64,000 nucleotides of DNA, from contig JALHLQ010000003.1 in NCBI GenBank assembly GCA_022844485.1, positions 41,921-105,920 on the forward strand, in the 5' to 3' direction. The position numbers and the translations under genes were made by a program. This DNA is from Xanthobacteraceae bacterium. GTDB lineage: Bacteria > Pseudomonadota > Alphaproteobacteria > Rhizobiales > Xanthobacteraceae. The first letter of the stretch is position 1. Each line of letters opens with the position of its first letter. Shown one piece after another: positions 1,142 through 31,539 of the stretch. The notes below the pieces were generated by a model. That model searched no databases, had not been told where the DNA came from, and saw only the letters and a list, made by a program, of their open reading frames with translations.

Positions 1142-1740
1142 GCACCCTTTCCCGCGACGAGCGTGTGACCAGCGGATCGCGCCAGCGGCGCATCATTGTG
1201 CTTCTGCCGCTGATCGGCTTCTTGGCGCTGGCGGCGCTTTTCTCTTTCCGGCTCGGCTCCGGCGACCCGTCGAAAATTCCCTCCGCGCTGATCGGCAAGC
1301 CCGTCCCGGAGACCGTGCTTCCACCCATCGCCGGGCTCGAGCGCGACGGCAAGCCGCTGCCGGGAATTGGGCCGAACGATTTCAAGGGCCATGTATCGAT
1401 TGTGAACGTGTGGGCGTCGTGGTGCATTCCCTGCCACGACGAGATGCCGTTCCTGCACCGCCTCGCCGAGGATCGCCGCATCCGCGTCCTTGGCATCAAT
1501 TACAAGGATCAGGCCGACAACGCGCGGCGCTTCATCGATCGCCACGGCAATCCCTTCGTGGCCTCGGGCGCCGATCTGAGCGGACGCGCGTCGATCGACT
1601 GGGGCGTTTACGGCGTTCCGGAGACGTTTGTTGTCGGGCGCGACGGACGTATCGTCCACAAGCTGGTCGGCCCGATCACCGCGGATAACATCGATGCCGT
1701 GGTGCGGGCCGCGATCGAAAAAGCCTTGGCGGGCTCGTAG
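1138..1740 (+). CDS. ccmG: Thiol:disulfide interchange protein CcmG/DsbE
   Basis: ATG at 1138 overlaps the ccmD stop (ATGA). N-terminal membrane anchor, thioredoxin active site WCIPC, and GVYGVPETF motif. Confidence 0.9.
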   Translation: MSTLSRDERVTSGSRQRRIIVLLPLIGFLALAALFSFRLGSGDPSKIPSALIGKPVPETVLPPIAGLERDGKPLPGIGPNDFKGHVSIVNVWASWCIPCHDEMPFLHRLAEDRRIRVLGINYKDQADNARRFIDRHGNPFVASGADLSGRASIDWGVYGVPETFVVGRDGRIVHKLVGPITADNIDAVVRAAIEKALAGS

Positions 1741-1742
1741 CG

Positions 1743-1787
1743 TGTGATCCCGAAAAGTGGGACGCGGTTTCCGGAACAAGGATCACG
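1743..1787. repeat. REP-like nested palindrome, single degenerate copy
   Basis: gtgatcc-cgaaaagtgggacgcggtttccgg-aacaa-ggatcac. Same core as the arrays at 37420-37522 and 50048-50208. Lies between convergent ccmG and the Bug-family gene. Confidence 0.7.
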
Positions 1788-1844
1788 GGCGAGACAAGCG
1801 TGAAAGGGGCGACGTGTTCGATCAAGAGAACCCCTCCCGAAGCA

Positions 1845-2804
1845 TCAGCCCTCCGCCTTGATGTTGTTGGCCACGACAACCTCGTGCCACTTCGTGGCTT
1901 CAGCGGCCACGAATTCAGCAAAATCCTCCAGGTTCATCGTCGCGATCTCAAAGCCCAGCTCTCTGAAGCGGACCTGCACACGCTCGGACATCAGCACCTT
2001 GTTGATCTCGGCGTTGAGGCGCACTTGCACGGATCTCGGTACGGCCGCCGGGCCGAAGAAGCCGAACCATGTGTAATCGTCGAACTGCGGGTAGCCGAGT
2101 TCGGCGAGCGTCGGCACCTCGGGCAAGGCGGCCGAGCGCTGCTTGCTGGTCACGGCGATCGCGCGCAGCTTGCCGTCCCTCACAAGCGGCACCGCGACCG
2201 GCATCGAGGTGCTGCCGATCGGCACGTGCCCCGCGACCACGTCGGTGACCGCACGCGCGGGCGTATAGGCGATATGAGTGAGATCGAAACCGGCTGCACG
2301 CTTGAGCCGTTCCATCGAAAGATGCGTCGTCGTGCCGGTCCCCGACGAGGCGTAATTGCCCGGGGTCGACTTCGCATGGGCGATCAATTCGGCGACGGTT
2401 CTCACCGGCATGCTTGGGTTCACGGTAATGATGTTCGGCGTGCGCGGTCCGAGCGCGATGGAGCAGAGATCGGCCACCACATCGTATCCCGCATTGTTGT
2501 AGAGGGACGGGTTGACGCTGATCGACACGCTGTTGGCGAGGAGCGTGTGCCCGTCGGGTGCCGCGTTTTTCACCTGTACGGTGGCGATATTGCCGCCTGC
2601 TCCCGGCTTCGGCTCGACGATGACGGATTGCCCGAGCGCCGGCTGAAGCCCCTCGCTCACCAGGCGCGAGACGACGTCCGTCGAACTGCCGGCGCCGTGT
2701 GCGACAAGGATCGTGATCGATCTGGTTGGCCAGCTTTGCGCGAAGGCAAATCGGGGCAGCACGGTTGCGGCGGCGGATGCGGCCAGAAAGCTACGGCGAT
2801 CCAT
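1845..2804 (-). CDS. Tripartite tricarboxylate transporter substrate-binding protein (Bug/TctC family)
   Basis: ATG at 2804 with GAGGAAA 5 nt upstream. Signal peptide MDRRSFLAASAAATVLPRFAFAQ, then SWPTRSITILVAHGAGSSTDVV, typical of the Bug family. The upstream part of the 1845-3326 ORF is Arg/Ser-rich junk. Confidence 0.85.
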   Translation of the reverse strand: MDRRSFLAASAAATVLPRFAFAQSWPTRSITILVAHGAGSSTDVVSRLVSEGLQPALGQSVIVEPKPGAGGNIATVQVKNAAPDGHTLLANSVSISVNPSLYNNAGYDVVADLCSIALGPRTPNIITVNPSMPVRTVAELIAHAKSTPGNYASSGTGTTTHLSMERLKRAAGFDLTHIAYTPARAVTDVVAGHVPIGSTSMPVAVPLVRDGKLRAIAVTSKQRSAALPEVPTLAELGYPQFDDYTWFGFFGPAAVPRSVQVRLNAEINKVLMSERVQVRFRELGFEIATMNLEDFAEFVAAEATKWHEVVVANNIKAEG

Positions 2805-2931
2805 GGGGGTTTCCTCTCGGCGGCCACGGATTGATTCCGCATGCCGGACGCGTCTCGTTTTGGCCGAGACCGTCCGGCGATTATGCACGGCGGCGAGGCT
2901 TGTACCAGCAGCCCGCGCCATCTCGCATCCG

Positions 2932-4005
2932 TCAACTGTCTCGCCGTGATGCGTCCTGGCCCTCTTTGATGACCTCGCGGGCCTCCTGCAGATCGGAGGC
3001 GTCTGCGCGTGGTTTCGGCTGGATCTCGCGCAGTTCCGACCGGTGACACAACTCGATATAGAGCGGAAAATGGTCGGAGCCGATGCTCGGCAAAACCGAA
3101 AGGCGGCGCAGCCCGAAGGCGTGGTCGAAGAAAACGTGATCGAGCGGCCATCTCGCGAGGCGGTAATCGGCATGGAAGGTTTGATAGAAACCGCGGCCGA
3201 TGCGCGGGTCGAGCAAGCCGCTGATCTTCTGGAAGAGACGCGTGGTCCGTGACCAGGCCACGTCGTTGAGATCGCCGGCGACGATGGCTTGCTGCCCTTG
3301 TTCCCGGATCTCTTTCGCGATGACAATCAGCTCGGCGTCGCGTTTGGCTGTATCGGAATGGGGCGGCGGCTGCGGGTGCAATCCATAAAAGGTTATGCGT
3401 CGGCCCGAGGGCAGGTTGACCCCGGTCTTGATCGACGGAGTGGCGTTGCTGATGAGATAGCGGACTTCGGGGGCGACCAGTTCCAGCTGCGACAGGAGGA
3501 CCATGCCATAGCTGTTCTCCTTCGGGTGGCGCACGGTGAACGCATAGTGCTGGTAGAGCGGGGCGAGTGCCCGGTCCCACCAGGCATCCGTCTCGACCAG
3601 CAACGCGATGTCGGGTTGCAGCCGCCGAAAGGCGTCGAAAAGACGCTCGGTCTCGCGGTTCTGCATGAGGACGTTTGAAACGAGGAGGCGGATTCGCTGA
3701 TCCGGCGCGCAATCTGCGTCCTCCACTTCGCGCGCGTGAAGGCGGGTGTAAGGCCACATGCGCACGACCTGCCAGAGGAGGCAAGCCGTGACGCCCGCCA
3801 GGAGAACGATCGTGGTCTGCGCTTCGAGCGGCAGCACGAACGCCGTCGCAACCAGGGCAATGACCAGGAGAACGGCGATCTGAAGACGGGGAAAATCCCA
3901 AATCCGGACCCACTTCTCCGTTGTGGGAACCAGAGGCAAAACGGTGAGTCCGATCAGGATGAGGTCCAGTCCCCAGATCGCGACGGTCAGCACCCGATCG
4001 AACAT
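2932..4005 (-). CDS. Membrane-anchored endonuclease/exonuclease/phosphatase (EEP) family protein
   Basis: ATG at 4005. Three N-terminal TM helices, then EEP-like motifs (LLVSNVLMQN, GDLNDVAWS, PSIGSDHFPLY). Confidence 0.75.
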   Translation of the reverse strand: MFDRVLTVAIWGLDLILIGLTVLPLVPTTEKWVRIWDFPRLQIAVLLVIALVATAFVLPLEAQTTIVLLAGVTACLLWQVVRMWPYTRLHAREVEDADCAPDQRIRLLVSNVLMQNRETERLFDAFRRLQPDIALLVETDAWWDRALAPLYQHYAFTVRHPKENSYGMVLLSQLELVAPEVRYLISNATPSIKTGVNLPSGRRITFYGLHPQPPPHSDTAKRDAELIVIAKEIREQGQQAIVAGDLNDVAWSRTTRLFQKISGLLDPRIGRGFYQTFHADYRLARWPLDHVFFDHAFGLRRLSVLPSIGSDHFPLYIELCHRSELREIQPKPRADASDLQEAREVIKEGQDASRRDS

Positions 4006-4126: not shown

Positions 4127-5584
4127 TCAGTATGCGTCGTCGAGAATGCGGATCTGCTTGATGACGGTCTTCACCAGGATCCGGACGTCGAGCCAAAGGG
4201 ACCAGGAGGAAATGTACCAGAGATCATGCTCGACGCGGCGTTCCATGTCCTCGACCCGCGGTGTCTCGCCCCGGCAGCCATTCACCTGCGCCCAGCCCGT
4301 GATGCCGGGTTTCATGTGATGGCGTTTCGCATAATTGGCGATGAGGGCGTCGTACTCGGTCTCGTGCGCGAGCGCATGCGGTCGGGGACCGACCAGGGAC
4401 ATGTCGCCTTTGAGCACATTGAGCAATTGCGGCAGCTCGTCGATGCTCGTTCGCCGCAATAGCCGGCCGACTGCCGTGACCCTGGCGTCGTCGCGCCTGG
4501 CCTGCGTCACGACGGCTCCGTCTTCGAGCGTGGTCATTGTGCGGAACTTGTAGATGATGAAGGGGCGTCCGCTGAATCCGGCGCGCTTTTGCCGGAAGAG
4601 CGCGGGCCCCGGGCTGTCCAATCGGATCACGAGGGCAACGATCAGCAGGAGCGGCGAGAGGATGATCACGCCAAGACCTGCGACACTGAAGTCGAGCAGC
4701 GACTTCGAGAACCGCTCGAGGCCCGTCAGCGGCGGGCGCTGCATCTCGACTGCCAGCGTTGCCCCGACTTCGCAGACCGGGCGCTGCAGAAGTTCCCGCG
4801 TGTTGTGGTCGGGCAGCAGCTTCACCGCAAGCGGCAGAAGCGACAGACGGGCGGAGAGATCCTCAACCGGTTTCAGGTGGGACCAGTCCGCCGCGAGGAT
4901 GATCTCTTCCACCGGATGGTGGCGGGCAAATGCGACAACGTCGTTCACCGCCTCATCCACGGCGACCCCGCCCTCGGCGTCCCCGTTCAGCGCAACCGCG
5001 ACGACCTGGTCGACAATGTATCCGTCGCGCTGAAGCGATCCGATGACGTCCTGGCGGCTAAGCTGGAGGGGCTCTCCGACGACGATGACCCGCTTTCCCC
5101 GCAGTACGCCGGCGGAGACCGCCTTCGCCACGAAACGCGAAAAGCCGACGCGCACCGCCGTGACGGCGAACAGCCCGGTCACGAAAAACAGGAGCACGGT
5201 TCCCCGCGACAGGACGTCGCCGATCTTCAAGGCAAACGCGATCGCTGTCAGGAGAAGGAAGACGAACCCCCAGATCACCGCCACCTCGCGCAACTGGCGG
5301 CCCAATTGGAGGAGCATCGACATCCGATAGAGGCGCCGCGCATGGAGGGAGGTCACGAACAGCGCGGCCACGGCCAAGCCGGCGCCGAGATAGTTGCCCA
5401 GATCGCCGATATCCCCGAACTCGAACTGGTGATAGGCGACGCCCGCGCCGATGCTGGTCGCGAGGACCAGCACGATATCCAAGGCCGCAGCGACGCCCCC
5501 AACCGAGGAGTAGTCCACCGGCAGCCGCGCGCGGCGAACCACGGGCACAGTTTCACCGAAACGCAACTCGCGGGCGGACCCCAT
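4127..5584 (-). CDS. Undecaprenyl-phosphate hexose-1-phosphate transferase (WbaP/ExoY-type initiating sugar transferase)
   Basis: ATG at 5584. N-terminal TM block and a central nucleotide-binding-like domain. C-terminal bacterial sugar transferase motifs: DELPQLLNVLKGDMSLVGPRP and KPGITGWAQVNG. Confidence 0.9.
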   Translation of the reverse strand: MGSARELRFGETVPVVRRARLPVDYSSVGGVAAALDIVLVLATSIGAGVAYHQFEFGDIGDLGNYLGAGLAVAALFVTSLHARRLYRMSMLLQLGRQLREVAVIWGFVFLLLTAIAFALKIGDVLSRGTVLLFFVTGLFAVTAVRVGFSRFVAKAVSAGVLRGKRVIVVGEPLQLSRQDVIGSLQRDGYIVDQVVAVALNGDAEGGVAVDEAVNDVVAFARHHPVEEIILAADWSHLKPVEDLSARLSLLPLAVKLLPDHNTRELLQRPVCEVGATLAVEMQRPPLTGLERFSKSLLDFSVAGLGVIILSPLLLIVALVIRLDSPGPALFRQKRAGFSGRPFIIYKFRTMTTLEDGAVVTQARRDDARVTAVGRLLRRTSIDELPQLLNVLKGDMSLVGPRPHALAHETEYDALIANYAKRHHMKPGITGWAQVNGCRGETPRVEDMERRVEHDLWYISSWSLWLDVRILVKTVIKQIRILDDAY

Positions 5585-5800: not shown

Positions 5801-7378
5801 ATGAGTGCAAACCGAGCAGGCGACCTCTCCCCCCGCGCGAACACGGCATCGACGCAAGCGCGGTTTGCCGAGACAGGATTTTGGAACCCAGCCGTCGGCG
5901 TTCTCCTCTGCGCCTTGCTGCTGAGTTCCTTTGCAGCCCTCAATCGTCAGCCCTTTTTTTACGAGGACACGACCACGTACATCCGGGGCGCCAACGAGAT
6001 TGTGCGCCGCCTGATCGGCGAGACCCATGGCCGGGATTGGGCGCGAACGGAACCGGCGGCGCAGGCTCCCGGTTCGGCTCCCTCGAACCCGAGCCTGACG
6101 TCGCTCGAGAGCAGGATCGTCCTCTCCGGACGGTCGGTCTATTATGGTGGGTTGCTCCTGCTCTCCTATGTCTCGACGAATTTTTGGCTTGCGGTCCTCT
6201 TTCAGGCCCTTTGCGTGGCCTTCACGCTGCGATTGCTGCTCGTCGGTTGCCTGGGGCTGAACCCATCGCTGTCGTATGCGGCGGCGTTGGGGCTGGCAGC
6301 GCTGACACCTCTCGGCTACTTCACCGGTCTGCTCATGCCGGACATTTTTGCCGGCCTGAGTATTCTGATCATGGCCATGCTGTTCGTGTTCTGGGAACAG
6401 ATCGGAACGGCAGCGAAGTTCGCTTTGGCTGCCATCCTGACCTTCGGCCTTGTCAGCCACACGAGCCATATCGCCCTGGCCGCGGTGTTCGTCCCGATCG
6501 CGGCCACGATCATCCTCGTGCGTTCCGGGCGGAAGCACCTTCGCAAAAGTCCATTCGCGCTGGTCACGGTTTGCATTGCGGTCGCCATCCTGTGCGAGGC
6601 TGCGTTTGCGGTCGCGGTGTCGCGCGTGCTCGGACAGCCGCCGGTACGGCTTCCGTTTTTCACCGCTCACCTGATCGAGCTCGGGCCGGGGCTGGACTAT
6701 CTGCAGAAAAATTGCGCGACGGTGCAGTTCGCCGTTTGCGCGTTCCTGGAGCGATTGCCGGTCACCTGGATCGAGTTCCTGTTCAGTACGGACCCCAATC
6801 GCGGAGTGTTCGCCATCGCCGACCCGCAGATGAAGCGGGCTTTGTCCGAGGAGCAAGTCCGCTTCTTTTTGCATGTGGTCCGCGCGGCCCCCCTCGAGGT
6901 GATCATCGGCTTGGCCAAGGACGTGCTCGCGCAGATCGTCAGGTTCGGCATGATGGACGTCGCCTATGGGCCCGATCGATGGAACTACTTCGAGACGCGG
7001 CTGCCGCCGGGGACCTGGGCTTCGATGCAACGATCGCTGGCCTTCAACAACGAGCCGATTGAACTCGTGCTGACCGCGAGCGCTTACGGATCGACGATTG
7101 TTGGCGCGGCCGTGACTGCGGCCTATGCCCTTCTCAATTCTCACGAGCGCTGGTCGGGGTCGTCGGAAGGAGTCGCAGGAACCATTCCGACCTTCCTGGG
7201 GTTGGTGGCGGCAGGGATTCTCGTCAACGCTGTAGTTTGCGCGGCGCTTGCCTCGCCTTTGGACAGGTTTCAGGCTCGTGTCATTTGGCTTGTTCCATTG
7301 CTGGGCCTTATCGCGGCGGCGCTCTGGTATCGCGCGCACGCGCGGTCCTTGGAATCAAGGAACTCCATGGCCGCGTGA
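5801..7378 (+). CDS. Polytopic membrane protein of unknown function (GT-C-like layout)
   Basis: ATG at 5801. At least 10 hydrophobic helices, an acidic motif FFYEDTTTY after the first helix, and a large soluble segment (residues ~300-420). I cannot name a family. Coding is supported by length and a clean hydrophobic periodicity. Confidence 0.5.
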   Translation: MSANRAGDLSPRANTASTQARFAETGFWNPAVGVLLCALLLSSFAALNRQPFFYEDTTTYIRGANEIVRRLIGETHGRDWARTEPAAQAPGSAPSNPSLTSLESRIVLSGRSVYYGGLLLLSYVSTNFWLAVLFQALCVAFTLRLLLVGCLGLNPSLSYAAALGLAALTPLGYFTGLLMPDIFAGLSILIMAMLFVFWEQIGTAAKFALAAILTFGLVSHTSHIALAAVFVPIAATIILVRSGRKHLRKSPFALVTVCIAVAILCEAAFAVAVSRVLGQPPVRLPFFTAHLIELGPGLDYLQKNCATVQFAVCAFLERLPVTWIEFLFSTDPNRGVFAIADPQMKRALSEEQVRFFLHVVRAAPLEVIIGLAKDVLAQIVRFGMMDVAYGPDRWNYFETRLPPGTWASMQRSLAFNNEPIELVLTASAYGSTIVGAAVTAAYALLNSHERWSGSSEGVAGTIPTFLGLVAAGILVNAVVCAALASPLDRFQARVIWLVPLLGLIAAALWYRAHARSLESRNSMAA

Positions 7379-7504
7379 ACGGCCCCGACCTGTTCCCTCA
7401 CCCTTTTGCACCGCTGCCTCGCATCAAGGCCCTGTCCGCTGCCGCCTCGGATGCGGGGCGTGACCGGCTCTGCAATCTAGAACACGCGCAAGGAGACCGC
7501 TGAA

Positions 7505-8497
7505 ATGACCGAGATCGTAACCGGCGCCCGTGCTGCTCCCCGGCGGAGTGCGAGGCTTGCGGATTATCTCGCCATCGCGCGCTTCGACCACGCGACCAAG
7601 CACATCTTTATTCTCCCGGGAATCATTCTGGCCTACGCACTGCGCGATCCGAGCCTGGAGAACGCGGGTTTCTCGATCGTCGTCGGCCTCCTCAGCGCGG
7701 TGCTGATTGCATCCGCCAACTATGTGATCAACGAATGGCTCGACCGGGAATTCGATGCGTTCCATCCGTCAAAATCGAATCGGACCGCCGTCAACGCATC
7801 GCTCTCGCCGCCGCTCGTCTATCTGCAGTATTTTGTCTTGGCGGCTGCCGGAATTACGCTTGCAAGCGCGGTTGGAAGCTTGTTCCTCCTGGTTTCGATT
7901 TTCTTCCTGCTTTCCGGGATCGTCTATAACGTCCGTCCCATCCGGTCGAAAGACAAGGCCTATGTGGATGTCTTGACCGAAAGCCTCAACAATCCGATCC
8001 GCCTGATGCTCGGCTGGACGATGCTCGACCACGAGACGCTGCCTCCATCGAGTCTTCTGCTCGCCTATTGGATGGGCGGCGCCTTCCTGATGGGGGCGAA
8101 GCGTCTCTCCGAATACCGCGAAATCGCCGCAGGCCCGGGTCTGCCGCTGCTGCACCGATATCGACGCTCGTTCCAATACTACACGGAAACGAGCCTGACG
8201 GTGTCCTGCTTTCTCTACAGCATGCTGTCGGCCTTCTTCATCGCCGTCTTCCTGGTGAAGTACCGCATCGAATATGTCTTGGCGCTGCCGGCTTTCGCGA
8301 CGCTCTTTGCGCTTTACTTCGCGATATCGCTGGAGCGGGAATCGGTCGCGCAGAAGCCGGAGCATCTGTTCAGAGAGTGGCGTTTGATCGCCGTGTCCGG
8401 TGCGACCGCGGCCTTGCTGCTTGTGTTGACTTTCGTCGACATTCCGGCTCTCACGCATCTGTCGACGCCGCATTACATCGGCTTGTCAATGAAGTGA
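7505..8497 (+). CDS. UbiA-superfamily transferase, decaprenyl-phosphate phosphoribosyltransferase-like
   Basis: ATG at 7505. Eight to nine TM helices. The first Asp-rich motif NYVINEWLDREFDAFHPSKSNR resembles the NDxxDxxxDxxHPxKxxRP signature of polyprenyl-P phosphoribosyltransferases. Confidence 0.75.
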   Translation: MTEIVTGARAAPRRSARLADYLAIARFDHATKHIFILPGIILAYALRDPSLENAGFSIVVGLLSAVLIASANYVINEWLDREFDAFHPSKSNRTAVNASLSPPLVYLQYFVLAAAGITLASAVGSLFLLVSIFFLLSGIVYNVRPIRSKDKAYVDVLTESLNNPIRLMLGWTMLDHETLPPSSLLLAYWMGGAFLMGAKRLSEYREIAAGPGLPLLHRYRRSFQYYTETSLTVSCFLYSMLSAFFIAVFLVKYRIEYVLALPAFATLFALYFAISLERESVAQKPEHLFREWRLIAVSGATAALLLVLTFVDIPALTHLSTPHYIGLSMK

Positions 8498-8503
8498 TGG
8501 CTC

Positions 8504-9250
8504 ATGCCGCTTGTGAACGGGCCGCTGGAATGGCGCGCACTGCGCCTCGTCGTCTTCGATCTGGACGGAACTCTCTACGATCAGCGCCGCTTGCGCCTGC
8601 ACATGATGGGCGGGCTGGTCGGCGCATGGCTGCGCACGGGTGATCTCACCCCGTTGCGGGCGTTACGAGAGTTCCGCAAGGGCCGGGAAGAGCTGGGCGA
8701 TGCCGGCGCCGATGATTTCCTATCGCAGCAATACAGCCTCGCGGCCGAGCGCTGCGGCCTTGAGGCTGCGGAGGTGGAGCGACTCGTGAATGATTGGATC
8801 GAGCGGCGGCCCCTGCCCTATCTGCGGCGATGCCGGTGGCCCGGCGTCGACCTGATCTTTGCCGGATTGCGCCGGGCGAGAATAACGACTGCGGTCTTCT
8901 CCGACTATCCCGCGCGCGACAAGCTCGACGCGCTCGGGCTTGAAGCCGATTTGATCGTCTCAGCTTGCGATCCGGACGTCCTGCGTCTCAAGCCGCACCC
9001 GCGCGGATTGGAGAAGCTCTTGGAGCAAACTGGTATCCGGGCGGACCAGTGTCTGATGATCGGCGACCGCATCGATCGCGACGCTTTAGCGGCTAGCCGG
9101 CTCGGCATCCGGGCGCTCATCAAGTCGAGGCGGCCGCATCCGACTGTCGATACATTTCGGACCTATACGGACGGACCGTTCCGCCCGCTCCTTGCCCCGC
9201 ACGAAGGCTCATTGTCGGTTCGCGGCGCCCTCCGTCAAAACGTCTCCTGA
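8504..9250 (+). CDS. HAD-superfamily phosphatase
   Basis: ATG at 8504, 6 nt after the UbiA stop. HAD motif I VVFDLDGTLYD and motif IV MIGDRIDRD. Confidence 0.8.
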   Translation: MPLVNGPLEWRALRLVVFDLDGTLYDQRRLRLHMMGGLVGAWLRTGDLTPLRALREFRKGREELGDAGADDFLSQQYSLAAERCGLEAAEVERLVNDWIERRPLPYLRRCRWPGVDLIFAGLRRARITTAVFSDYPARDKLDALGLEADLIVSACDPDVLRLKPHPRGLEKLLEQTGIRADQCLMIGDRIDRDALAASRLGIRALIKSRRPHPTVDTFRTYTDGPFRPLLAPHEGSLSVRGALRQNVS

Positions 9251-10472
9251 CCTGAGCGGTGGCACCGGCCGACATGACCAAGAAGGCAAACGCGTGAATG
9301 TGTCCGGAGTGGAAGAAGAAACCTCCCGGCAGCAGCATTGCCAGCACGCAAATCACGACCGTCCGGTCGACCAGACTTTTCGTCTTCACGAATTCGCCGA
9401 CAAACAGCCGGATGTAGATGATCATGAATACGAGCAACATGAACCCGATTCTGAAGAATTCCCCCAACAACCCGACGTCGTTGATCCAAAAGTAAGGACC
9501 GTAGAGGCGCTTGAATCCGCCATCGAACATGACCGACAGAGCACCGAGACCGAAATAATAGTTTTCGGCCAGGAGGCGAAGGGCGATTTGGGCGGTTTGA
9601 GCCCTGATATTGTCGTCCAAACTGACGCTGTCGCCGCCTCGCAGCACGTAGTCAAAGACAGATCCGATCGGGTCTTTATCGAATCCCACCATCAATAAAC
9701 CCACCGCCACAGCGCCCGCTGCAGCGGCCCGGACGGTCACAGCCGGACGAAGTACGAGCACCGCAAGACCTGCAACGAGCAATGCGAGAAGCGTCAGACT
9801 GCGCGTTTGCGCGATGAGCAGCAGCCCTGTCAACCCGATGAGCATCGGGACAGCATGCGCAATGGACCTCTTGCACGCCAGGCTCACCGTCCCGTAGAGG
9901 AAAGCGATTGCAAAGCAATCCCCGGGCGACGTAATCCGCAGCTTGCGCGGGTCTAAATCGGGAATGTTCGGACGCGTGAGCAGGCGATCGCTCGCAACGG
10001 CTTGAATGAGAAGGCTGAGTACCAGGTAAATCGCAGCGCACCAGAGCAACGCGCGGAAGACGTCGTCGGCGTCGAGCTCGTATCGACGCCGGATTCCATC
10101 GAACACGAACCAGAACAGAAACGAGAGTGCCTTACGATTCTCCGCCAATCCGTAGATGATCGGCTGCTTGTAGTTGATCCAGGCGAAGAACGTGCTCAGA
10201 AAAACGAGAGCGAGCGGGGTTGTAAAGAAGAAGAGGTCCAAAGCCGTAAGGCTCCGCTGCCGCATCCGAGCGAGCACGACAACGGTGGAATAGAGTAACA
10301 GCAGGCCATACGTGCTCTCCAGGAAGTAACGGAAGGCGAGGGGATGGTTGTCGAAAGAGAAGTTGGTGGCAAAGAAGAATTGAAACGCGAGGCCGAATGC
10401 CAATGTGAGAGCAACCGTGCCGCGGACTTGCCGGGCCGATGTTCGAAGGGCTGGCGATTTCGCACGCGGCAT
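9120..10472 (-). CDS. O-antigen ligase/polymerase (Wzy)-like multi-pass membrane protein
   Basis: About 10-12 TM helices with one large loop, located in an EPS locus that has Wzx, PCP and OPX genes. The start is uncertain (ATG 10472 or GTG 10514). The 3' end overlaps the HAD gene by 131 bp. Confidence 0.55.
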   Translation of the reverse strand: MPRAKSPALRTSARQVRGTVALTLAFGLAFQFFFATNFSFDNHPLAFRYFLESTYGLLLLYSTVVVLARMRQRSLTALDLFFFTTPLALVFLSTFFAWINYKQPIIYGLAENRKALSFLFWFVFDGIRRRYELDADDVFRALLWCAAIYLVLSLLIQAVASDRLLTRPNIPDLDPRKLRITSPGDCFAIAFLYGTVSLACKRSIAHAVPMLIGLTGLLLIAQTRSLTLLALLVAGLAVLVLRPAVTVRAAAAGAVAVGLLMVGFDKDPIGSVFDYVLRGGDSVSLDDNIRAQTAQIALRLLAENYYFGLGALSVMFDGGFKRLYGPYFWINDVGLLGEFFRIGFMLLVFMIIYIRLFVGEFVKTKSLVDRTVVICVLAMLLPGGFFFHSGHIHAFAFLVMSAGATAQVRRRFDGGRREPTMSLRAGQGAGGTVRPYRSEMYRQSDAAAST

Positions 10473-10561
10473 CGAATGGATGTTCGATCCGCGATGGCCT
10501 GCCTCCAATTGCACGCTACTCGGTCTCGAAGATGAACGGACTCATCGAGGACTCCTGCGAC

Positions 10562-14504: not shown

Positions 14505-16079
14505 GTGCTCGGCTCGCGAAACCCCGCTAATGTATTTGCGATCATCGTGCCGCGCACCGTTCTCAACACAATCGCAAACGGACTTGGCCTTGGCGCCAAC
14601 GCGACCTTTGGCGTCCTCTTTACAGCGATTTACTTTCGTCTGCTGGGAGGCGAACATTACGGCCTGGTCGGCTTCTGCCTCACGCTCCTTCTCGCGAGCG
14701 ACTTCTTCGCCGCCATGGGCCTCGGCCGCGCTACCGTGCGCGAGCTGGCTCGGCGGGAGCACTCTGCATCGCTCGCGCAAGAGATGCGCGACGCCCTTCT
14801 CACCTTGCAACTCATCCATGTCGGGCTTGCGCTCGTCTGCGGTCTCGTTCTCATCATCGCTTCGGGCTGGATTGCCGAGCATTGGTTAAGACGGGACGAG
14901 GTTTCTCTTGAGCAGGCGCGGACCAGCATCCTCCTGCTCGGAGTGCTTGTGGCTTGTCAGCTGCCGCGCGAGATCTGCCGGGCCGCGCTGACCGGGCTAC
15001 AGCGCCAGGTCTTGGTGAATATGCTCGGCGCAAGCTTCGTCTTGGTGCGCGGGATCTTTACAATCGTAGCGCTTACGACGTTCGGGCGGGATGCGATTGT
15101 CTTTTTGAGCGCGCAAATCTTCGTCTCGATCGTCGAGACATTGTGGTTCGTCGTCGCCGCGTGGCGGCGAATGCCGCCGGGATCCCGTCAGCCGCGCTTC
15201 GACCCGAAGATAGTGAAGGAGACCTGGGCCTTCGCGACGACCGACGGATTAGTGATGATGGCGAGCGCCGCCATGATGCTGGGCGATCAGCTGATACTAA
15301 GCACGATTCTGCCGCTTGATCTCTACGGCGGCTATGTTCTGGTGATCCGGATTACCGACGTTATCGCACGCGGGGCTCTGCCGTTTACCTACGCGTTTTT
15401 TCCCCACCTCACCGATCTGGTTGCGCGAGGCCGGCATGAAGAGCTCGCTCACGATTACCACCGCGTCAGTCAGGTGGCGTCCTCGATTCTCATTCCGTTT
15501 GCGTTCCTCGTTGGGCTGTTTCCGGCTGAAATCCTTCGGCTGATCTCCGGCGACGCCTCCATCACTGCAGCCTTGGCAAGTGTGCTCGTCTTGCGAACGT
15601 TTGGAAACCTGTTCGCCAGCCTGCAATATCTGCCCCAAGTGCTGCAGCTCTCGATGGGCGCGACGCTGCCGGTACTGATAATTACATTAATCGTGGCGCC
15701 GATTTATCTCATCGGCACGATGATGCTGACGCCGATCTACGGCGTGATCGTACCCGCTGCGCTATGGTGTGGGCTGCACGCGGCGACGATCTTTCCGATG
15801 CTGATCATCACGCATCGCATGATCCTGCATGGTCAAGCTTGGGTCTGGACAAAAAAGGCCCTCATCGCCCCCACGCTTATCAGCGTGTGTGTTGTCACGC
15901 TTGGTCGGCTTACTTCTCCAGCGACGATCTCCTGGACGTCAACGACGCTTTGGCTCGCGGCGACAGGACTGTTGACGACGCTGGCGATCCTCTGGGCATC
16001 GCCAGATCTTCGTGCTCTGGCCGGCGCCGGGATTCGCAAGCTGACCCTACGCCGGCAAGTCCGCCGTCGGGCCGATTGA
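14505..16079 (+). CDS. Polysaccharide flippase (Wzx/MOP superfamily), copy 1
   Basis: GTG at 14505, start uncertain. About 12-14 TM helices with the typical N-terminus ...NTIANGLGLGANATFGVLFTAIYFRLLGGEHYGLVG. Confidence 0.8.
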   Translation: MLGSRNPANVFAIIVPRTVLNTIANGLGLGANATFGVLFTAIYFRLLGGEHYGLVGFCLTLLLASDFFAAMGLGRATVRELARREHSASLAQEMRDALLTLQLIHVGLALVCGLVLIIASGWIAEHWLRRDEVSLEQARTSILLLGVLVACQLPREICRAALTGLQRQVLVNMLGASFVLVRGIFTIVALTTFGRDAIVFLSAQIFVSIVETLWFVVAAWRRMPPGSRQPRFDPKIVKETWAFATTDGLVMMASAAMMLGDQLILSTILPLDLYGGYVLVIRITDVIARGALPFTYAFFPHLTDLVARGRHEELAHDYHRVSQVASSILIPFAFLVGLFPAEILRLISGDASITAALASVLVLRTFGNLFASLQYLPQVLQLSMGATLPVLIITLIVAPIYLIGTMMLTPIYGVIVPAALWCGLHAATIFPMLIITHRMILHGQAWVWTKKALIAPTLISVCVVTLGRLTSPATISWTSTTLWLAATGLLTTLAILWASPDLRALAGAGIRKLTLRRQVRRRAD

Positions 16080-24492: not shown

Positions 24493-26064
24493 TTGCAAAA
24501 TACCGCACAACCTGTCTTTCAAGACGGCGCGGAGGCTCAGTCGTTGACTGAACCTGAAAATCGGCCCGTAGACAGTCTACGCTCTCGCGCAATCAGCGGC
24601 GCCATCTATATGAGCTTGGGACAGTTGTCTAAAGCTGTCCTGCACTTTGCGTCGATTGTTATTTTGGCGCGACTGTTGACACCGGCGGACTTCGGCGTCT
24701 TCGCGATGGCCGCGCCGGTTCTCGTCCTTGCCACCTTCCTCGGCGAAGCCGGGCTGGGGGCGGCCGTCATTCAGCGGAGTTCGCTCAACACCGCGGAACT
24801 CAACACGATCTTCTGGGTCAACGCTGGCTTGGGCATACTGGCCGCTCTCATCCTTGTCGCTGTCGCGCCGAGCATCGCGTCGTTTTACCGGGAAGAGCGG
24901 GTGGAAGCCATGATCGCGGCCAGCGGCGTCATTGTGATGCTCGTCGCCCTCTCTGCTTCGCATTTGGCGCTCCTGAACCGCAAGATGCATTACCGGAGCA
25001 TCGCGCTGATCGACGCGCTCTCTCTGTTGGTCGGGACGGCGCTCGCGGTCGGCGTCGCAATCGTCTGGCGCACCTACTGGGCGCTTTGGCTGCTGCCCTT
25101 TGGGACGCATCTGTCTACCCTGGCGCTCGGCTATTGGCACTCGCAGTGGCGCCCAGGGCGATGGGCCACCCTGTTGGAGGTTCGCGATATGCTGCATTTC
25201 GGAAAGAACGTTTTGGCAGCGCGCCTGGCGGATTATCTCTGCCGGAACGTGGACAAGGTTCTGATCGGCCGAGGCTGGGGAACCGTTGAGCTCGGCCTCT
25301 ATGATCGCGCCTACAAGATCGTTCTTCTCCCGCTTCTTTTCGTCAATGTCCCGCTCGAGCGGCTGACCTTGCCCATGTTGTCTGGGACGCGCGACGATCC
25401 TGACAAGTATCGGCGAATCTATTCGACGGGGCTGCAGTTCGCGCTGCTTGTGACGATGCCGCTGATCATGGTCGTCATCGTCGCGCCCGAGCCTGTGGTG
25501 GCTGTCATCCTCGGCCGCGATTGGCTCGCGAGCTCTCCCATGTTCCGGTGGCTCGCGGTTGCATGCTTGTTGCAGCTCGCAGGTCATACGTTGAGCCAGC
25601 TCCTCATAAGCCAGGCGCGAACGCGGGAAATGGCGTTTGCGACCGTGGTCAGCAGTCTCTACACGTCGCTTGCATTCCTTGCCGGCCTGCCTTGGGGTGC
25701 CACCGGAGTAGCCGCCGCATACGCGTTGAGCGAGATTCTGCGGACCCCCGTGCTGTTTTGGTGGGTAAGCCGAAGAGGACCGGTCCGGATTTCCGATCAG
25801 GTCCGCTCGGTGTTGCCCTTTTTGATCAGCGCGGCGCTCTGCGTGCCCGTTATTATGGCGCTTCAGTCACCGCTCGGCTTTTCACCTTTGTTGTTCACCG
25901 GCGCTGCGTCTTTGGCTGCTTTCATCACGACTTTTTTTGGACTGGTGCTCACGCCGTCCGGGCGCAACTGTCTGCGTGAAGGCTACCAGATGGCCCGCTC
26001 CGCACTCTCGTCGACGAATCCGGCCGCTGGCGGGGATGTGAGCCCGCTCGCCACCCTCGAGTAA
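24493..26064 (+). CDS. Polysaccharide flippase (Wzx/MOP superfamily), copy 2
   Basis: TTG at 24493. ISGAIYMSLGQLSKAVLHFASIVILARLLTPADFGVFAMA is the classic Wzx/PssL-type N-terminus. About 12-14 TM helices. Confidence 0.8.
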   Translation: MQNTAQPVFQDGAEAQSLTEPENRPVDSLRSRAISGAIYMSLGQLSKAVLHFASIVILARLLTPADFGVFAMAAPVLVLATFLGEAGLGAAVIQRSSLNTAELNTIFWVNAGLGILAALILVAVAPSIASFYREERVEAMIAASGVIVMLVALSASHLALLNRKMHYRSIALIDALSLLVGTALAVGVAIVWRTYWALWLLPFGTHLSTLALGYWHSQWRPGRWATLLEVRDMLHFGKNVLAARLADYLCRNVDKVLIGRGWGTVELGLYDRAYKIVLLPLLFVNVPLERLTLPMLSGTRDDPDKYRRIYSTGLQFALLVTMPLIMVVIVAPEPVVAVILGRDWLASSPMFRWLAVACLLQLAGHTLSQLLISQARTREMAFATVVSSLYTSLAFLAGLPWGATGVAAAYALSEILRTPVLFWWVSRRGPVRISDQVRSVLPFLISAALCVPVIMALQSPLGFSPLLFTGAASLAAFITTFFGLVLTPSGRNCLREGYQMARSALSSTNPAAGGDVSPLATLE

Positions 26065-26233
26065 GTTGCATGCACAGCAAAGGCCCTCGGCATCGAGCCC
26101 AAACCCGATGCTGGCGCTTGCCGCAGTTTGGAGATTTCGCGCGTTCGTTCGGCGTTTGTTGTTGCACAATGCCGGTGGAGCGCTACCCTTTGGCGATAGC
26201 CCAGTTTCCCCGATTTCCTGCCTAGAGCCTCAC

Positions 26234-30990: not shown

Positions 30991-31539
30991 ATGATTTTCA
31001 CTCCTGCCACTCTCCCCGGCGCTGTCCTGATCGACATCCAAAGAAAGCACGACGAGCGGGGCTACTTTGCGCGCACGATGTGCCGCGATGAATTTGCCAG
31101 CCGCGAACTGGCCGCCGATTTCGTCCAGTCCAATCACTCCTTCAACCGGCGCGAAGGGACTTTGCGGGGCTTGCACATGCAGGCGAGCCCGCACGCCGAG
31201 GTGAAGCTCGTTCGTTGCGTCCGCGGAGCGATCTATGACGTGATCGTCGATCTGCGGCCCTCGTCGCCGGCCTATTTGCGCTGGGAGGGTTTTGAACTCT
31301 CCGCCGACAATGGTCGAATGCTTTATGTCCCGGAAGGCTTCGCCCACGGCTTCCAGACGCTGTGCGACGACACCGACGTCACCTACCAAGTCTCGCACCC
31401 TTATGTCCCCGGCGCGGAGATCGGTGTCCGCTACAACGATCCGACCTTCAACATTGCCTGGCCGCTGCCGGTCGCCGTCATTTCGCCGAAGGACGCGTCC
31501 TGGCCGGACTTCAGGCAGATCGAAGCGATGTCGGCGTGA
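30991..31539 (+). CDS. NDP-4-keto-6-deoxyhexose 3,5-epimerase (RfbC/RmlC cupin family)
   Basis: ATG at 30991, with GGAGG 12 nt upstream. DERGYFART..., GTLRGLHMQ, KLVRCVRGAIYDVIVDLR and YVPEGFAHGFQTL are RmlC-family motifs. Confidence 0.85.
   Translation: MIFTPATLPGAVLIDIQRKHDERGYFARTMCRDEFASRELAADFVQSNHSFNRREGTLRGLHMQASPHAEVKLVRCVRGAIYDVIVDLRPSSPAYLRWEGFELSADNGRMLYVPEGFAHGFQTLCDDTDVTYQVSHPYVPGAEIGVRYNDPTFNIAWPLPVAVISPKDASWPDFRQIEAMSA

What the first reader, a model, noticed from the sequence alone, without database searches (positions are those of the whole stretch)
5801..9250. GT-C-like membrane protein, DPPR-synthase-like UbiA enzyme and HAD phosphatase: a possible lipid-linked pentofuranose donor module inside an EPS locus
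Three co-directional, tightly spaced genes sit between the initiating sugar transferase and the Wzy-like gene.
- The 525-aa polytopic protein has an acidic FFYEDTTTY motif after helix 1 and a big soluble loop, which is a GT-C-like layout. I cannot place it in a family.
- The UbiA-superfamily protein has the first Asp-rich motif NYVINEWLDREFDAFHPSKSNR. This resembles the NDxxDxxxDxxHPxKxxRP signature of decaprenyl-phosphate phosphoribosyltransferase (mycobacterial Rv3806c type) more than quinone or heme prenyltransferases.
- The third gene is a HAD phosphatase (DLDGT).

In the established mycobacterial route, PRPP plus polyprenyl-P gives polyprenyl-P-ribose-5-P. This is dephosphorylated to a lipid-linked donor that is used outside the cytoplasm by GT-C enzymes.

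I found no DprE1/DprE2-like FAD and SDR epimerase pair next to these genes. The predicted donor would therefore be polyprenyl-P-ribofuranose rather than arabinofuranose. Periplasmic ribofuranosyl decoration of an alphaproteobacterial EPS would be unusual.
Basis: partly seen in the sequence, partly recalled or inferred. Interest (0 to 1): 0.6.

Follow-up and report, generated by a model that had tools for sequence, protein, structure and literature searches.

The report
Lipid-linked ribose glycosylation genes in EPS locus
Three adjacent genes in an exopolysaccharide locus most likely load ribose from PRPP onto a membrane lipid carrier and attach it to the polysaccharide outside the cytoplasm; this pathway type was described in 2024, and here it uses uncharacterised protein families and has no dedicated flippase gene.

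Summary
The three co-directional ORFs and all quoted motifs are present, and each ORF has strongly conserved homologues.

Kelly et al. 2024 (PNAS, PMC11127046) described "three-component" systems that add pentofuranoses outside the cytoplasm. These consist of a UbiA-type polyprenyl-phosphoribose synthase, a HAD phosphatase, a flippase and a GT-C transferase.

- **UbiA protein:** It is closest to the mycobacterial enzyme Rv3806c by profile score, sequence and fold. It keeps 9 of the 11 PRPP and Mg-binding residues of Rv3806c. It scores far below the curated cut-off for that family.
- **525-aa protein:** It models confidently and resembles only GT-C enzymes (PglB, STT3, ArnT), though modestly. 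It shows no detectable sequence similarity to a GT136-type transferase.
- **HAD protein:** It shares only the HAD superfamily with the published phosphatase domain.
- **Synteny:** In many Proteobacteria the same proteins form a GT-C/UbiA/HAD/GtrA operon.
- **This genome:** It has no GtrA gene and no DprE1-type domain. The module was not found in 40 relatives.

Verdict: a re-wired variant of a known system. The donor is probably polyprenyl-P-ribofuranose and the target is probably the EPS. This scan has already reported similar cassettes on other DNA.

The parts
5801..7378 (+). 525-aa polytopic membrane protein (P0001). It is a GT-C-like glycosyltransferase candidate from an unclassified family. 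The predicted catalytic Asp56 lies in the PFFYEDTTTY motif just after TM1. A helical periplasmic domain spans about residues 278-417 and carries invariant Cys305 and Cys313.
   Evidence: - The AF2 model has pLDDT 90.6 and pTM 0.92.
- The only high-probability Foldseek PDB hits are GT-C enzymes: PglB 6gxc (prob 1.0, TMq 0.37), STT3A 8b6l (0.99, 0.40), ArnT 5f15 (0.90, 0.31) and AftA 8if8. All have E >= 0.01.
- Invariant residues in 45 homologues are D56, Y60, R111, D181, H220, C305, C313, P364, N476, R489 and R493.
- None of the 45 members has a Pfam family.
- hhalign against the GT136-type GT-C of Rhizobium sp. CCGE531 gives probability 0.2.
7505..8497 (+). 330-aa UbiA-superfamily protein (P0002). 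It is a candidate polyprenyl-phosphate 5-phosphoribosyltransferase (PPPRS) from a divergent clade of the DPPR-synthase branch.
   Evidence: - Pfam UbiA matches at E 1e-21.
- The best NCBIfam model is DPPR synthase NF008977 (66.6 bits, cut-off 234). The second is the HAD-UbiA fusion NF006088 (54.3 bits). All prenyltransferase models score 36 bits or less.
- The only PDB sequence hit is Rv3806c, 8j8j.
- The AF2 model (pLDDT 87.5) best matches 8j8j_A at TM 0.75/0.84 and rmsd 2.9 A. The next hit, AfUbiA, gives 0.63/0.72 and 6.1 A.
- Equivalents of Rv3806c R22, K28, Y70, N73, D77, K87, R90, Y138 and K143 are invariant. Q135 is replaced by G and Y157 by N (residue roles from PMC10994848).
8504..9250 (+). 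248-aa soluble HAD-IA phosphatase (P0003). It is the candidate polyprenyl-P-ribose-5-phosphate 5'-phosphatase. Its motifs are DLDGT (19-23), VFSDY (131-135), LKPHP (162-166) and GDRIDRD (187-193).
   Evidence: - Pfam Hydrolase matches at E 7e-17. The best NCBIfam model is the TIGR02253 HAD subfamily.
- A homologue lies next to the UbiA gene in 29 of the 31 related loci that carry the UbiA gene.
- It shows no significant similarity to the PRP domain of the CCGE531 PPPRS-PRP fusion beyond the DxDGT motif.
4127..5584 (-). Context: the initiating polyprenyl-phosphate sugar-phosphate transferase of the EPS locus. It is divergently transcribed from the module.
   Evidence: Pfam Bac_transf matches at E 9e-68, together with CoA_binding_3. 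The same arrangement occurs in the closest related contig, L118.
9120..10514 (-). Context: a 464-aa polytopic Wzy-like protein. It is convergent with the HAD gene and overlaps its non-conserved 3' tail by 131 bp.
   Evidence: The only family match is a sub-threshold Wzy_C hit (E 0.005).
14505..16079 (+). Context: first of two Wzx/MOP-type flippases in the locus. The second lies at 24493-26064(+). Either could substitute for the missing GtrA, but this is speculation.
   Evidence: Pfam Polysacc_synt matches at E 4e-15. The second Wzx matches Polysacc_synt_3 at E 4e-74. The genome has no GtrA. Its only SMR gene lies on another contig.

Best explanation
The three genes are a variant of the extracytoplasmic pentofuranose glycosylation pathway.

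1. **Donor synthesis (inferred from sequence and fold).** On the cytoplasmic face, the UbiA-type enzyme P0002 transfers ribose-5-phosphate from PRPP to a polyprenyl phosphate, presumably undecaprenyl-P.
2. **Dephosphorylation (inferred from synteny).** The soluble HAD phosphatase P0003 removes the 5'-phosphate. The product is polyprenyl-P-ribofuranose.
3. **Flipping (unknown protein).** The lipid-linked sugar is moved to the periplasmic face. Relatives use a GtrA protein, but this genome has none.
4. **Transfer (inferred from fold, topology and synteny).** The GT-C-like protein P0001 uses Asp56 in its first periplasmic loop to transfer the pentofuranose.
5. **Acceptor (inferred from location).** The acceptor is most likely the Wzx/Wzy-dependent exopolysaccharide whose locus encloses the genes.

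No step has been shown biochemically for these proteins.
For: **UbiA protein (P0002).**
- Among 17 UbiA-superfamily NCBIfam models, the DPPR-synthase and HAD-UbiA (PPPRS-PRP) models win by about 20-30 bits.
- Rv3806c is the only PDB sequence hit and the best structural match, at TM 0.75/0.84 and rmsd 2.9 A.
- Equivalents of the Rv3806c 5'-phosphate binders K28 and Y70 and the pyrophosphate binder K87 are invariant in this family. So is the equivalent of H84 in the HPxK motif, which has no assigned binding role. All four are absent from the genome's own CtaB, UbiA and a third paralogue (residue roles from PMC10994848).
- The genome has separate heme-O-synthase and UbiA genes.

**GT-C-like protein (P0001).** The model is confident, and only GT-C enzymes appear among the high-probability structural hits. 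The invariant Asp, Arg and His residues all fall on the predicted periplasmic side.

**Synteny.**
- 80 related loci were retrieved through P0001. Of these, 31 carry the UbiA gene next to it, 29 the HAD gene and 24 a GtrA gene, mostly as a co-directional operon.
- Examples are Ramlibacter tataouinensis, Novosphingobium and Acetobacter.
- Two P0001 homologues are fused to a GtrA domain.
- No epimerase gene is conserved with the module. The genome has no DprE1 domain.

**Conservation in place.** The closest relative contig keeps the same arrangement of initiating transferase, GT-C, UbiA and HAD in the same EPS context. Identities are 87%, 70% and 74% for UbiA, GT-C and HAD.

**Experimental precedent.** The pathway type was demonstrated in Citrobacter youngae (PMC11127046).
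Against: - P0002 scores 66.6 bits against a cut-off of 234 for DPPR synthase. It is only about 26% identical to a PPPRS-PRP fusion over 164 residues.
- Three active-site region positions differ invariantly from Rv3806c: D74 is E, Q135 is G and Y157 is N.
- The HAD protein shows no detectable similarity to the characterised PRP domain type beyond the DxDGT motif.
- P0001 has no Pfam family and no sequence similarity to a GT136-type GT-C. Its fold matches are modest, with TM 0.3-0.4 and E >= 0.01.
- No GtrA gene exists anywhere in the genome and no SMR gene lies in the window. One required step therefore has no candidate gene.
- In other lineages the module sits next to LPS genes, namely lptC/kdsD and lpxB. 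The acceptor may therefore not be an EPS in general.
Confidence: 0.62

Rival explanations
1. The pathway is the same, but the lipid-linked ribose is epimerised or otherwise remodelled before transfer, for example to xylofuranose. The enzyme would be encoded elsewhere in the locus or genome, so the sugar added is not ribofuranose.
For: - In C. youngae O2 a single GalE-like SDR converts the donor to the Xylf form, and the GT-C accepts both sugars (PMC11127046).
- The EPS locus contains an extended SDR (31431-32585) and a DRL/SAF oxidoreductase (29593-30915).
- The SDR shows weak similarity to the epimerase of the CCGE531 locus (26% identity, E 7e-10).
Against: - The SDR overlaps by one base the 3' end of an adjacent same-strand nucleotidyltransferase gene. 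It looks like part of a nucleotide-sugar pathway.
- It lies 22 kb from the module.
- No epimerase is conserved next to the module in 31 related loci.
- No DprE1 domain occurs in the genome.
- The window has no GMC oxidoreductase or NAD(P)-dependent oxidoreductase like those of the CCGE531 locus.
Confidence: 0.15
2. The module is active, but its acceptor is not the locus-encoded EPS. The target could be LPS core or lipid A, another glycan, or a protein. In that case the position inside the EPS locus is an accident of insertion.
For: - In Comamonadaceae the four-gene operon lies beside lptC and kdsD.
- In Acetobacter it lies beside lpxB.
- In R. johnstonii pRL10 the UbiA-HAD-GtrA genes stand alone.
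- The module is sporadic. It was not found in 40 relatives.
Against: - Here it is wedged between the initiating transferase and the Wzy-like gene, and it shares a divergent promoter region with the transferase.
- The same position is kept in the nearest relative's EPS locus despite 13-30% protein divergence.
Confidence: 0.13
3. The genes are not a glycosylation module. P0002 would be a conventional prenyltransferase making an unknown lipid. P0001 would be a transporter, polymerase or ligase. The HAD protein would be unrelated.
For: - P0002 is far below every curated family cut-off.
- Many databases label its homologues as 4-hydroxybenzoate polyprenyltransferase.
- P0001 has no family assignment. 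One homologue has a faint Wzy_C match (E 0.014).
Against: - P0002 has no BLAST similarity to the genome's own UbiA or CtaB.
- It keeps the phosphoribose-specific and pyrophosphate-binding residues that prenyltransferases lack.
- Rv3806c is its best structural match.
- It is linked to GtrA-family genes, and some P0001 homologues are fused to GtrA domains. GtrA proteins are associated with the flipping of polyprenyl-P-sugars.
- Non-GT-C hits for P0001 have Foldseek probability of 0.23 or less and TM of about 0.1.
Confidence: 0.06
4. The module is a decaying or incomplete remnant. Without a flippase, the donor never reaches the periplasm.
For: The genome has no GtrA gene. Its only SMR gene lies on another contig. 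Most relatives carry GtrA.
Against: - All three ORFs are intact.
- The same GtrA-less trio is kept in a diverged relative, with 87% UbiA identity.
- It is also kept in Acetobacter (2 loci) and in a Sphingomonadaceae MAG. Long-term retention therefore looks likely.
- Two MOP-type flippases are present in the locus.
Confidence: 0.04

Closest known systems
Three-component extracytoplasmic pentofuranose side-chain system of Citrobacter youngae O1/O2 (ORF15 PPPRS-PRP, ORF14 flippase, ORF12 GT-C, founding family GT136; Kelly et al. 2024, PMC11127046)
   Same: - The logic matches: a UbiA-type phosphoribosyltransferase, a HAD-superfamily phosphatase and a polytopic GT-C-type transferase with an Asp just after TM1.
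- The genes sit inside a polysaccharide locus.
- No DprE1/E2 is present, so ribofuranose is the default sugar.
   Different: - The synthase and phosphatase are separate genes. In ORF15 they are fused.
- The HAD protein shows no detectable similarity to a PRP-type domain beyond the DxDGT motif.
- The UbiA protein is only about 26% identical to a PPPRS-PRP fusion.
- The transferase has no detectable sequence similarity to a GT136-type enzyme. It has no C-terminal CBM, and its soluble domain is inserted between TM7 and TM8.
- No flippase gene is present.
- The host pathway is Wzx/Wzy EPS synthesis, whereas the Citrobacter O-antigen is made by an ABC-transporter pathway.
Mycobacterial decaprenyl-phosphoarabinose pathway (Rv3806c DPPR synthase, Rv3807c phosphatase, DprE1/DprE2, Rv3789, Emb/Aft GT-C enzymes)
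   Same: - The first step chemistry is predicted to be the same.
- Rv3806c is the closest solved structure.
- 9 of its 11 PRPP and Mg-contact residues are conserved.
- A GtrA-family partner is present in relatives.
- The final transferase has a GT-C fold.
   Different: - No DprE1 domain occurs in the genome.
- The phosphatase is a HAD enzyme, whereas Rv3807c belongs to an unrelated phosphatase family.
- The P0002 score is far below the DPPR-synthase cut-off.
- Three active-site region positions differ: D74 is E, Q135 is G and Y157 is N.
Uncharacterised GT-C/UbiA/HAD/GtrA operon found across Pseudomonadota (for example Ramlibacter tataouinensis, Polaromonas, Novosphingobium aquimarinum and Paracoccus), with P0001 relatives also in Acidobacteriota
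   Same: The proteins are orthologous. P0001 is 30-45% identical, UbiA 50-66% and HAD 42-57%. The gene order is the same.
   Different: - This genome and its nearest relative lack the GtrA gene, as do two Acetobacter loci and one Sphingomonadaceae MAG.
- Here the module is embedded in an EPS locus, whereas elsewhere it is a stand-alone operon or lies next to LPS genes.
Gtr-type O-antigen glucosylation (GtrA, GtrB, GtrC) and ArnT-type lipid A modification
   Same: The general scheme is shared: a polyprenyl-monophosphate sugar is made in the cytoplasm, flipped, and used by a polytopic periplasmic transferase.
   Different: In those systems the donor synthase is a GT2 enzyme that uses a UDP-sugar. 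Here it is a UbiA-type enzyme predicted to use PRPP. P0001 matches no GtrC or ArnT sequence family.

Membership tests
Three-component pentofuranose glycosylation system (Kelly et al. 2024) | A UbiA-superfamily polyprenyl-phosphate phosphoribosyltransferase related to DPPR synthase | tested here: met
   - The best NCBIfam models are DPPR synthase and the HAD-UbiA fusion.
- The only PDB sequence hit, and the best fold match, is Rv3806c.
- The phosphoribose and pyrophosphate-binding residues are conserved.
- Activity itself was not tested.
Three-component pentofuranose glycosylation system (Kelly et al. 2024) | A HAD-family phosphoribose phosphatase (PRP), fused to or next to the synthase | tested here: inconclusive
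   - A HAD gene starts 6 bp downstream of the UbiA gene.
- It is syntenic in 29 of 31 loci.
- It shows no significant similarity to the PRP domain of a PPPRS-PRP fusion.
Three-component pentofuranose glycosylation system (Kelly et al. 2024) | A dedicated small flippase (EmrE/ArnE-like, SMR or GtrA type) encoded in the locus | tested here: not met
   - The genome has no PF04138 match.
- Its single PF00893 gene lies on contig C11, outside the window.
- GtrA is present in 24 related loci.
Three-component pentofuranose glycosylation system (Kelly et al. 2024) | A GT-C-fold transferase encoded with the synthase | tested here: met
   - The model is confident.
- The only high-probability structural neighbours are PglB, STT3, ArnT and AftA. 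The similarity is modest, with TM 0.3-0.4.
- An invariant Asp follows TM1.
CAZy GT136 | Sequence similarity to C. youngae ORF12-type proteins, which carry a C-terminal CBM | tested here: not met
   - hhalign of the 45-member family profile against the GT-C of the Rhizobium sp. CCGE531 candidate locus gives probability 0.2.
- The model shows no beta-rich C-terminal domain.
- C. youngae ORF12 itself was not available for comparison.
Decaprenyl-phosphate phosphoribosyltransferase equivalog (NCBIfam NF008977, Rv3806c type) | A score above the curated cut-off of 234 bits | tested here: not met
   The score is 66.6 bits. In a survey of 201 genomes of the same class, true equivalogs score 234-301 bits, whereas this clade scores 63-72 bits.
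Decaprenyl-phosphate phosphoribosyltransferase equivalog (NCBIfam NF008977, Rv3806c type) | The PRPP and Mg2+-binding residues R22, K28, Y70, N73, D77, K87, R90, Q135, Y138, K143 and Y157 | tested here: inconclusive
   Nine of the 11 are invariant in the family. Q135 is replaced by G and Y157 by N. The Q135 position also varies among other PPPRS-like proteins.
Mycobacterial or rhizobial arabinofuranose donor pathway | A DprE1 oxidase (FAD_binding_4 plus ALO domain) and a DprE2 reductase | tested here: not met
   - No PF04030 match occurs in the 98.5%-complete genome, although the Corynebacterium control rings.
- No conserved epimerase accompanies the module elsewhere.
- DprE2 was not searched separately.
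Quinone or heme prenyltransferases (UbiA, MenA, CyoE/CtaB) | Best match to those family models, and a role that the genome would otherwise lack | tested here: not met
   - Those models score 29 bits or less.
- The genome has separate CtaB and UbiA genes.
- P0002 has no BLAST similarity to them (E > 2).
GT-C superfamily | A polytopic membrane protein with a catalytic acidic residue in the first extracytoplasmic loop and a lipid-phosphate binding site on the outer face | tested here: met
   - About 10 TM helices are predicted, with a positive N-terminus inside.
- Invariant D56 and Y60 lie just after TM1. Invariant R111, D181, H220, R489 and R493 lie on predicted periplasmic loops or helix ends.
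- This is topology inferred from a model. It has not been determined experimentally.

The most novel reading that the evidence does not exclude
The P0001 family would be a new, widespread GT-C glycosyltransferase family, large enough to found a CAZy family. The P0002 clade has invariant changes at two Rv3806c phosphoribose-contact positions (Q135 to G and Y157 to N) and at motif residue D74 (to E). It may therefore make a lipid-linked sugar phosphate that differs from the canonical polyprenyl-P-ribose. The GtrA-less three-gene form seen here would work without a dedicated flippase. Flipping might then fall to a Wzx-type protein of the EPS locus or to the GT-C itself.
Probability: 0.12. Interest if true: 0.6.

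Novelty: new variant of a known kind. Interest (0 to 1): 0.35.

Why it matters
If the prediction holds, this bacterium decorates a Wzx/Wzy exopolysaccharide with a ribofuranose (or related pentofuranose) side chain added in the periplasm.

This would extend the pathway described in 2024 from ABC-transporter O-antigens to EPS. It would also show the pathway can be built from non-orthologous parts: a separate HAD phosphatase and a GT-C family with no CAZy or Pfam assignment.

The same uncharacterised protein families are widespread in Proteobacteria, and P0001 relatives also occur in Acidobacteriota and on rhizobial plasmids. One biochemical characterisation would therefore annotate thousands of genes now labelled "4-hydroxybenzoate polyprenyltransferase" or "hypothetical protein".

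The missing flippase is a small open question. Otherwise the finding is a well-supported annotation and not a new mechanism.

Tried and rejected
- **Family search for P0001:** Pfam and NCBIfam searches of P0001 and 44 homologues gave no family.
- **PDB sequence search for P0001:** No hit.
- **Profile comparisons:** The P0001 family was compared by hhalign with the GT136-type GT-C of Rhizobium sp. CCGE531 and with the extra 599-aa membrane protein of Polaromonas loci. Neither showed similarity.
- **HAD versus PRP domain:** BLAST of the HAD protein against the PRP domain of a PPPRS-PRP fusion found nothing beyond DxDGT.
- **Phage homologues of P0002:** None.
- **Reference records:** CP099034 (E. 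coli RHB45-C06) and BK026208 (a phage with a separate PRP gene), both cited by Kelly et al., are not in the held collections. C. youngae ORF12 and ORF15 could not be compared directly.
- **Flippase search:** No GtrA gene occurs in the genome, and no SMR gene lies in the window.
- **Epimerase and oxidoreductase search:** Relatives of the CCGE531 locus enzymes were sought in the window. Only a generic SDR match appeared.
- **Promoter and terminator scan:** Nothing informative.
- **Neighbour clustering:** Spurious antisense ORFs in these GC-rich genomes made the result noisy. Beyond the four core genes it gave only lineage-specific synteny.
- **UbiA-superfamily tree:** Not built, because no actinobacterial, MenA or chlorophyll-synthase reference sequences could be fetched. 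Profile scores, key-residue columns and fold ranking were used in its place.

Full report
**What is there**

The window carries three co-directional ORFs exactly as described:
- P0001: 5801-7378, 525 aa.
- P0002: 7505-8497, 330 aa.
- P0003: 8504-9250, 248 aa.

The quoted motifs are all present. FFYEDTTTY lies at residues 52-60 of P0001. NYVINEWLDREFDAFHPSKSNR lies at residues 72-93 of P0002. DLDGT lies at residues 19-23 of P0003.

Pfam calls P0002 a UbiA-family protein (E 1e-21) and P0003 a HAD hydrolase (E 7e-17). P0001 matches no Pfam or NCBIfam family.

The genes lie inside a Wzx/Wzy-type polysaccharide locus that spans roughly 4.1-33.5 kb. That locus contains:
- a divergent Bac_transf initiating transferase (4127-5584, minus strand);
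- a convergent Wzy-like gene (9120-10514, minus strand; Wzy_C only at E 0.005);
- two GH5 glycanases;
- two Wzx flippases;
- a Wzz/P-loop co-polymerase and a Poly_export protein;
- GT8, GT2, GT26 and GT4 transferases;
- a nucleotide-sugar block.

**The UbiA protein**

Among 17 UbiA-superfamily NCBIfam models, the two best are decaprenyl-phosphate phosphoribosyltransferase NF008977 (66.6 bits, E 2e-18) and the HAD-UbiA fusion NF006088 (54.3 bits). Chlorophyll synthase, heme O synthase, MqnP, MenA and UbiA models all score 36 bits or less. The score is far below the curated cut-off of 234 bits, so P0002 is not an equivalog.

The only PDB sequence hit is Rv3806c, entry 8j8j. An AlphaFold model built on 28 homologues has pLDDT 87.5. 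It matches 8j8j_A best, at E 9e-8, TM 0.75/0.84 and rmsd 2.9 A. The next hit, AfUbiA, gives TM 0.63/0.72 and rmsd 6.1 A.

The Rv3806c structure paper (PMC10994848) names these contacts:
- Mg2+: N73 and D77.
- Ribose: N73 and Q135.
- 5'-phosphate: K28, Y70 and Y157.
- Pyrophosphate: R22, K87, R90, K143 and Y138.

I aligned the P0002 family with 24 alphaproteobacterial DPPRS-like proteins and a PPPRS-PRP fusion. The equivalents R26, K32, Y73, N76, D80, K90, R93, Y141 and K149 are invariant in the P0002 family. The genome's own CtaB, UbiA and a third paralogue lack the K28, Y70, H84 and K87 equivalents.

Three positions differ invariantly from Rv3806c: D74 is E, Q135 is G and Y157 is N. The Q135 position also varies (N, T, S) among other PPPRS-like proteins.

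P0002 has no BLAST similarity to the genome's own heme O synthase or UbiA (E > 2). It aligns with the PPPRS domain of the Rhizobium sp. CCGE531 fusion at E 1e-9, with 26% identity over 164 residues.

I conclude that P0002 belongs to the phosphoribosyltransferase branch of the superfamily, as a separate and divergent clade. In a survey of 201 genomes of the same class, this clade scores 63-72 bits against NF008977. True equivalogs score 234-301 bits, and fusion-length proteins score about 130-160 bits.

**The 525-aa protein**

An alignment of 45 homologues shows these invariant residues: D56, Y60, R111, D181, H220, C305, C313, P364, N476, R489 and R493. The AlphaFold model is confident, with pLDDT 90.6 and pTM 0.92.

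The model shows about ten TM helices. The N-terminus is positively charged. D56 lies immediately after TM1. A helical soluble domain (about residues 278-417) sits between TM7 and TM8 and carries the two invariant cysteines. With the N-terminus inside, all invariant charged residues fall on the periplasmic side.

In the Foldseek search of the PDB, the only hits with high probability are GT-C enzymes:
- PglB 6gxc: prob 1.00, TMq 0.37.
- STT3A 8b6l: prob 0.99, TMq 0.40.
- ArnT 5f15: prob 0.90, TMq 0.31.
- OST-B and AftA also appear.

Transporters and other membrane proteins have probability 0.23 or less and TM about 0.1. All E-values are 0.01 or worse, so the fold assignment is supported but not strong.

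The family is not GT136 by sequence. hhalign against the 658-aa GT-C of the CCGE531 candidate locus gives probability 0.2. None of the 45 members has a Pfam family.

**Synteny**

I retrieved 80 GTDB loci that encode P0001 relatives. The P0002-type UbiA gene is adjacent in 31, the HAD gene in 29 and a GtrA gene in 24. Nearly every locus whose P0001 relative is 38% identical or more has the co-directional order GT-C, UbiA, HAD, GtrA.

Examples:
- Ramlibacter tataouinensis, where the operon lies beside an SDR gene, lptC and kdsD.
- Novosphingobium aquimarinum.
- Acetobacter oeni, which has no GtrA and where the module lies beside lpxB.
- R. johnstonii 3841 plasmid pRL10, which has UbiA-HAD-GtrA only.

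Two P0001 homologues are fused to a GtrA domain. No epimerase is conserved with the module.

The nearest relative is a metagenome contig. It keeps the same order of ccm genes, initiating transferase, GT-C, UbiA and HAD, also without GtrA. Identities are 70%, 87% and 74% for GT-C, UbiA and HAD. The module was not found in 40 relatives, 24 from the same family and 16 from the same order. It is therefore sporadic and probably acquired horizontally.

**Comparison with what is known**

Kelly, Duong, Nothof, Lowary and Whitfield (PNAS 2024, PMC11127046) showed the following in Citrobacter youngae O1/O2:
- ORF15, a HAD "PRP" domain fused to a UbiA-type PPPRS, makes polyprenyl-P-Ribf from PRPP.
- ORF14 is the presumed flippase.
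- ORF12, a GT-C enzyme that founded family GT136, adds alpha-Ribf to the O-antigen in the periplasm.
- An optional SDR epimerase gives Xylf, and DprE1/E2 homologues give Araf.

They listed candidate loci in Stenotrophomonas, Rathayibacter, Burkholderia, Rhizobium, Xanthomonas, Bacillus and a phage. They noted both SMR/GtrA-type and EmrE-like flippases, and one case with a separate PRP gene.

The present module follows the same logic. It differs in every part:
- The HAD gene is separate, and its product shows no detectable similarity to a PRP-type domain beyond the DxDGT motif.
- The UbiA protein belongs to a divergent clade.
- The GT-C belongs to an unclassified family.
- No flippase is encoded.
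- The setting is a Wzx/Wzy EPS locus.

No DprE1-type domain occurs in the 98.5%-complete genome. Ribofuranose is therefore the default prediction. An unlinked or locus-encoded SDR acting as an epimerase cannot be excluded.

**Earlier notes of this scan**

After I had reached this reading, the scan's index showed that similar UbiA-HAD-GtrA/GT-C cassettes had been reported on other DNA. Those reports named the same closest known system. The index also held notes on this window's two Wzx genes and on the 131-bp overlap between the HAD and Wzy-like genes. I confirmed both of these from coordinates and Pfam.

**Verdict**

The mechanistic reading is well supported by sequence, fold and synteny, but no step has been tested biochemically. 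The system is a re-wired variant of a pathway type described in 2024.

Open points are the identity of the flippase, the exact pentose and the acceptor.

Noticed in passing
own genome contig C14:47952-51614 (locus L004, ORF 1426-3648, minus strand): A 740-aa polytopic protein whose C-terminal part is a fourth UbiA-family domain (NDIYDLEKD motif, PF01040 75 bits). It lies next to a possible DNA-methyltransferase-like ORF. Its function is unknown, and it lacks the DPPRS-specific residues.
   Followed up: partly
L012:10620-12419 (also L017, L018, L023 and L024; seven loci in all): In Polaromonas-type loci an extra 599-aa polytopic membrane protein is inserted between the UbiA and HAD genes. It has no Pfam family and no profile similarity to the P0001 family. 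It may be a second transferase that uses the same donor.
   Followed up: partly
L025 and L028 (Ramlibacter rhizophilus and Ramlibacter sp. AN1015): These genomes carry a second P0001 paralogue away from the UbiA-HAD-GtrA operon. Several transferases may therefore share one lipid-linked donor.
   Followed up: no
L007 (R. johnstonii 3841 plasmid pRL10, record 325107-327156): A UbiA-HAD-GtrA trio sits on the plasmid of a well-studied model rhizobium. No P0001-type gene lies within 10 kb. This strain would be a tractable system for testing the donor-synthesis genes.
   Followed up: partly
window 9120-9250: The HAD gene and the convergent Wzy-like gene overlap by 131 bp at their 3' ends. In the HAD protein the overlap covers a tail that is not conserved in homologues. 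The nearest relative shows a similar 90-bp overlap with a GT4 gene (L118).
   Followed up: partly
window 26066-27751: A 561-aa ORF in the EPS locus matches the N-terminal domain of eukaryotic glucosamine inositolphosphorylceramide transferase 1 (GINT1_N, E 3e-36). This is an unusual domain for a bacterial EPS locus.
   Followed up: no
window 1845-4005 compared with L118: The TctC-family receptor and Exo_endo_phos genes lie between the ccm genes and the initiating transferase here. They are absent from the nearest relative's contig, where ccmG directly abuts the transferase. This looks like a local insertion or deletion.
   Followed up: no
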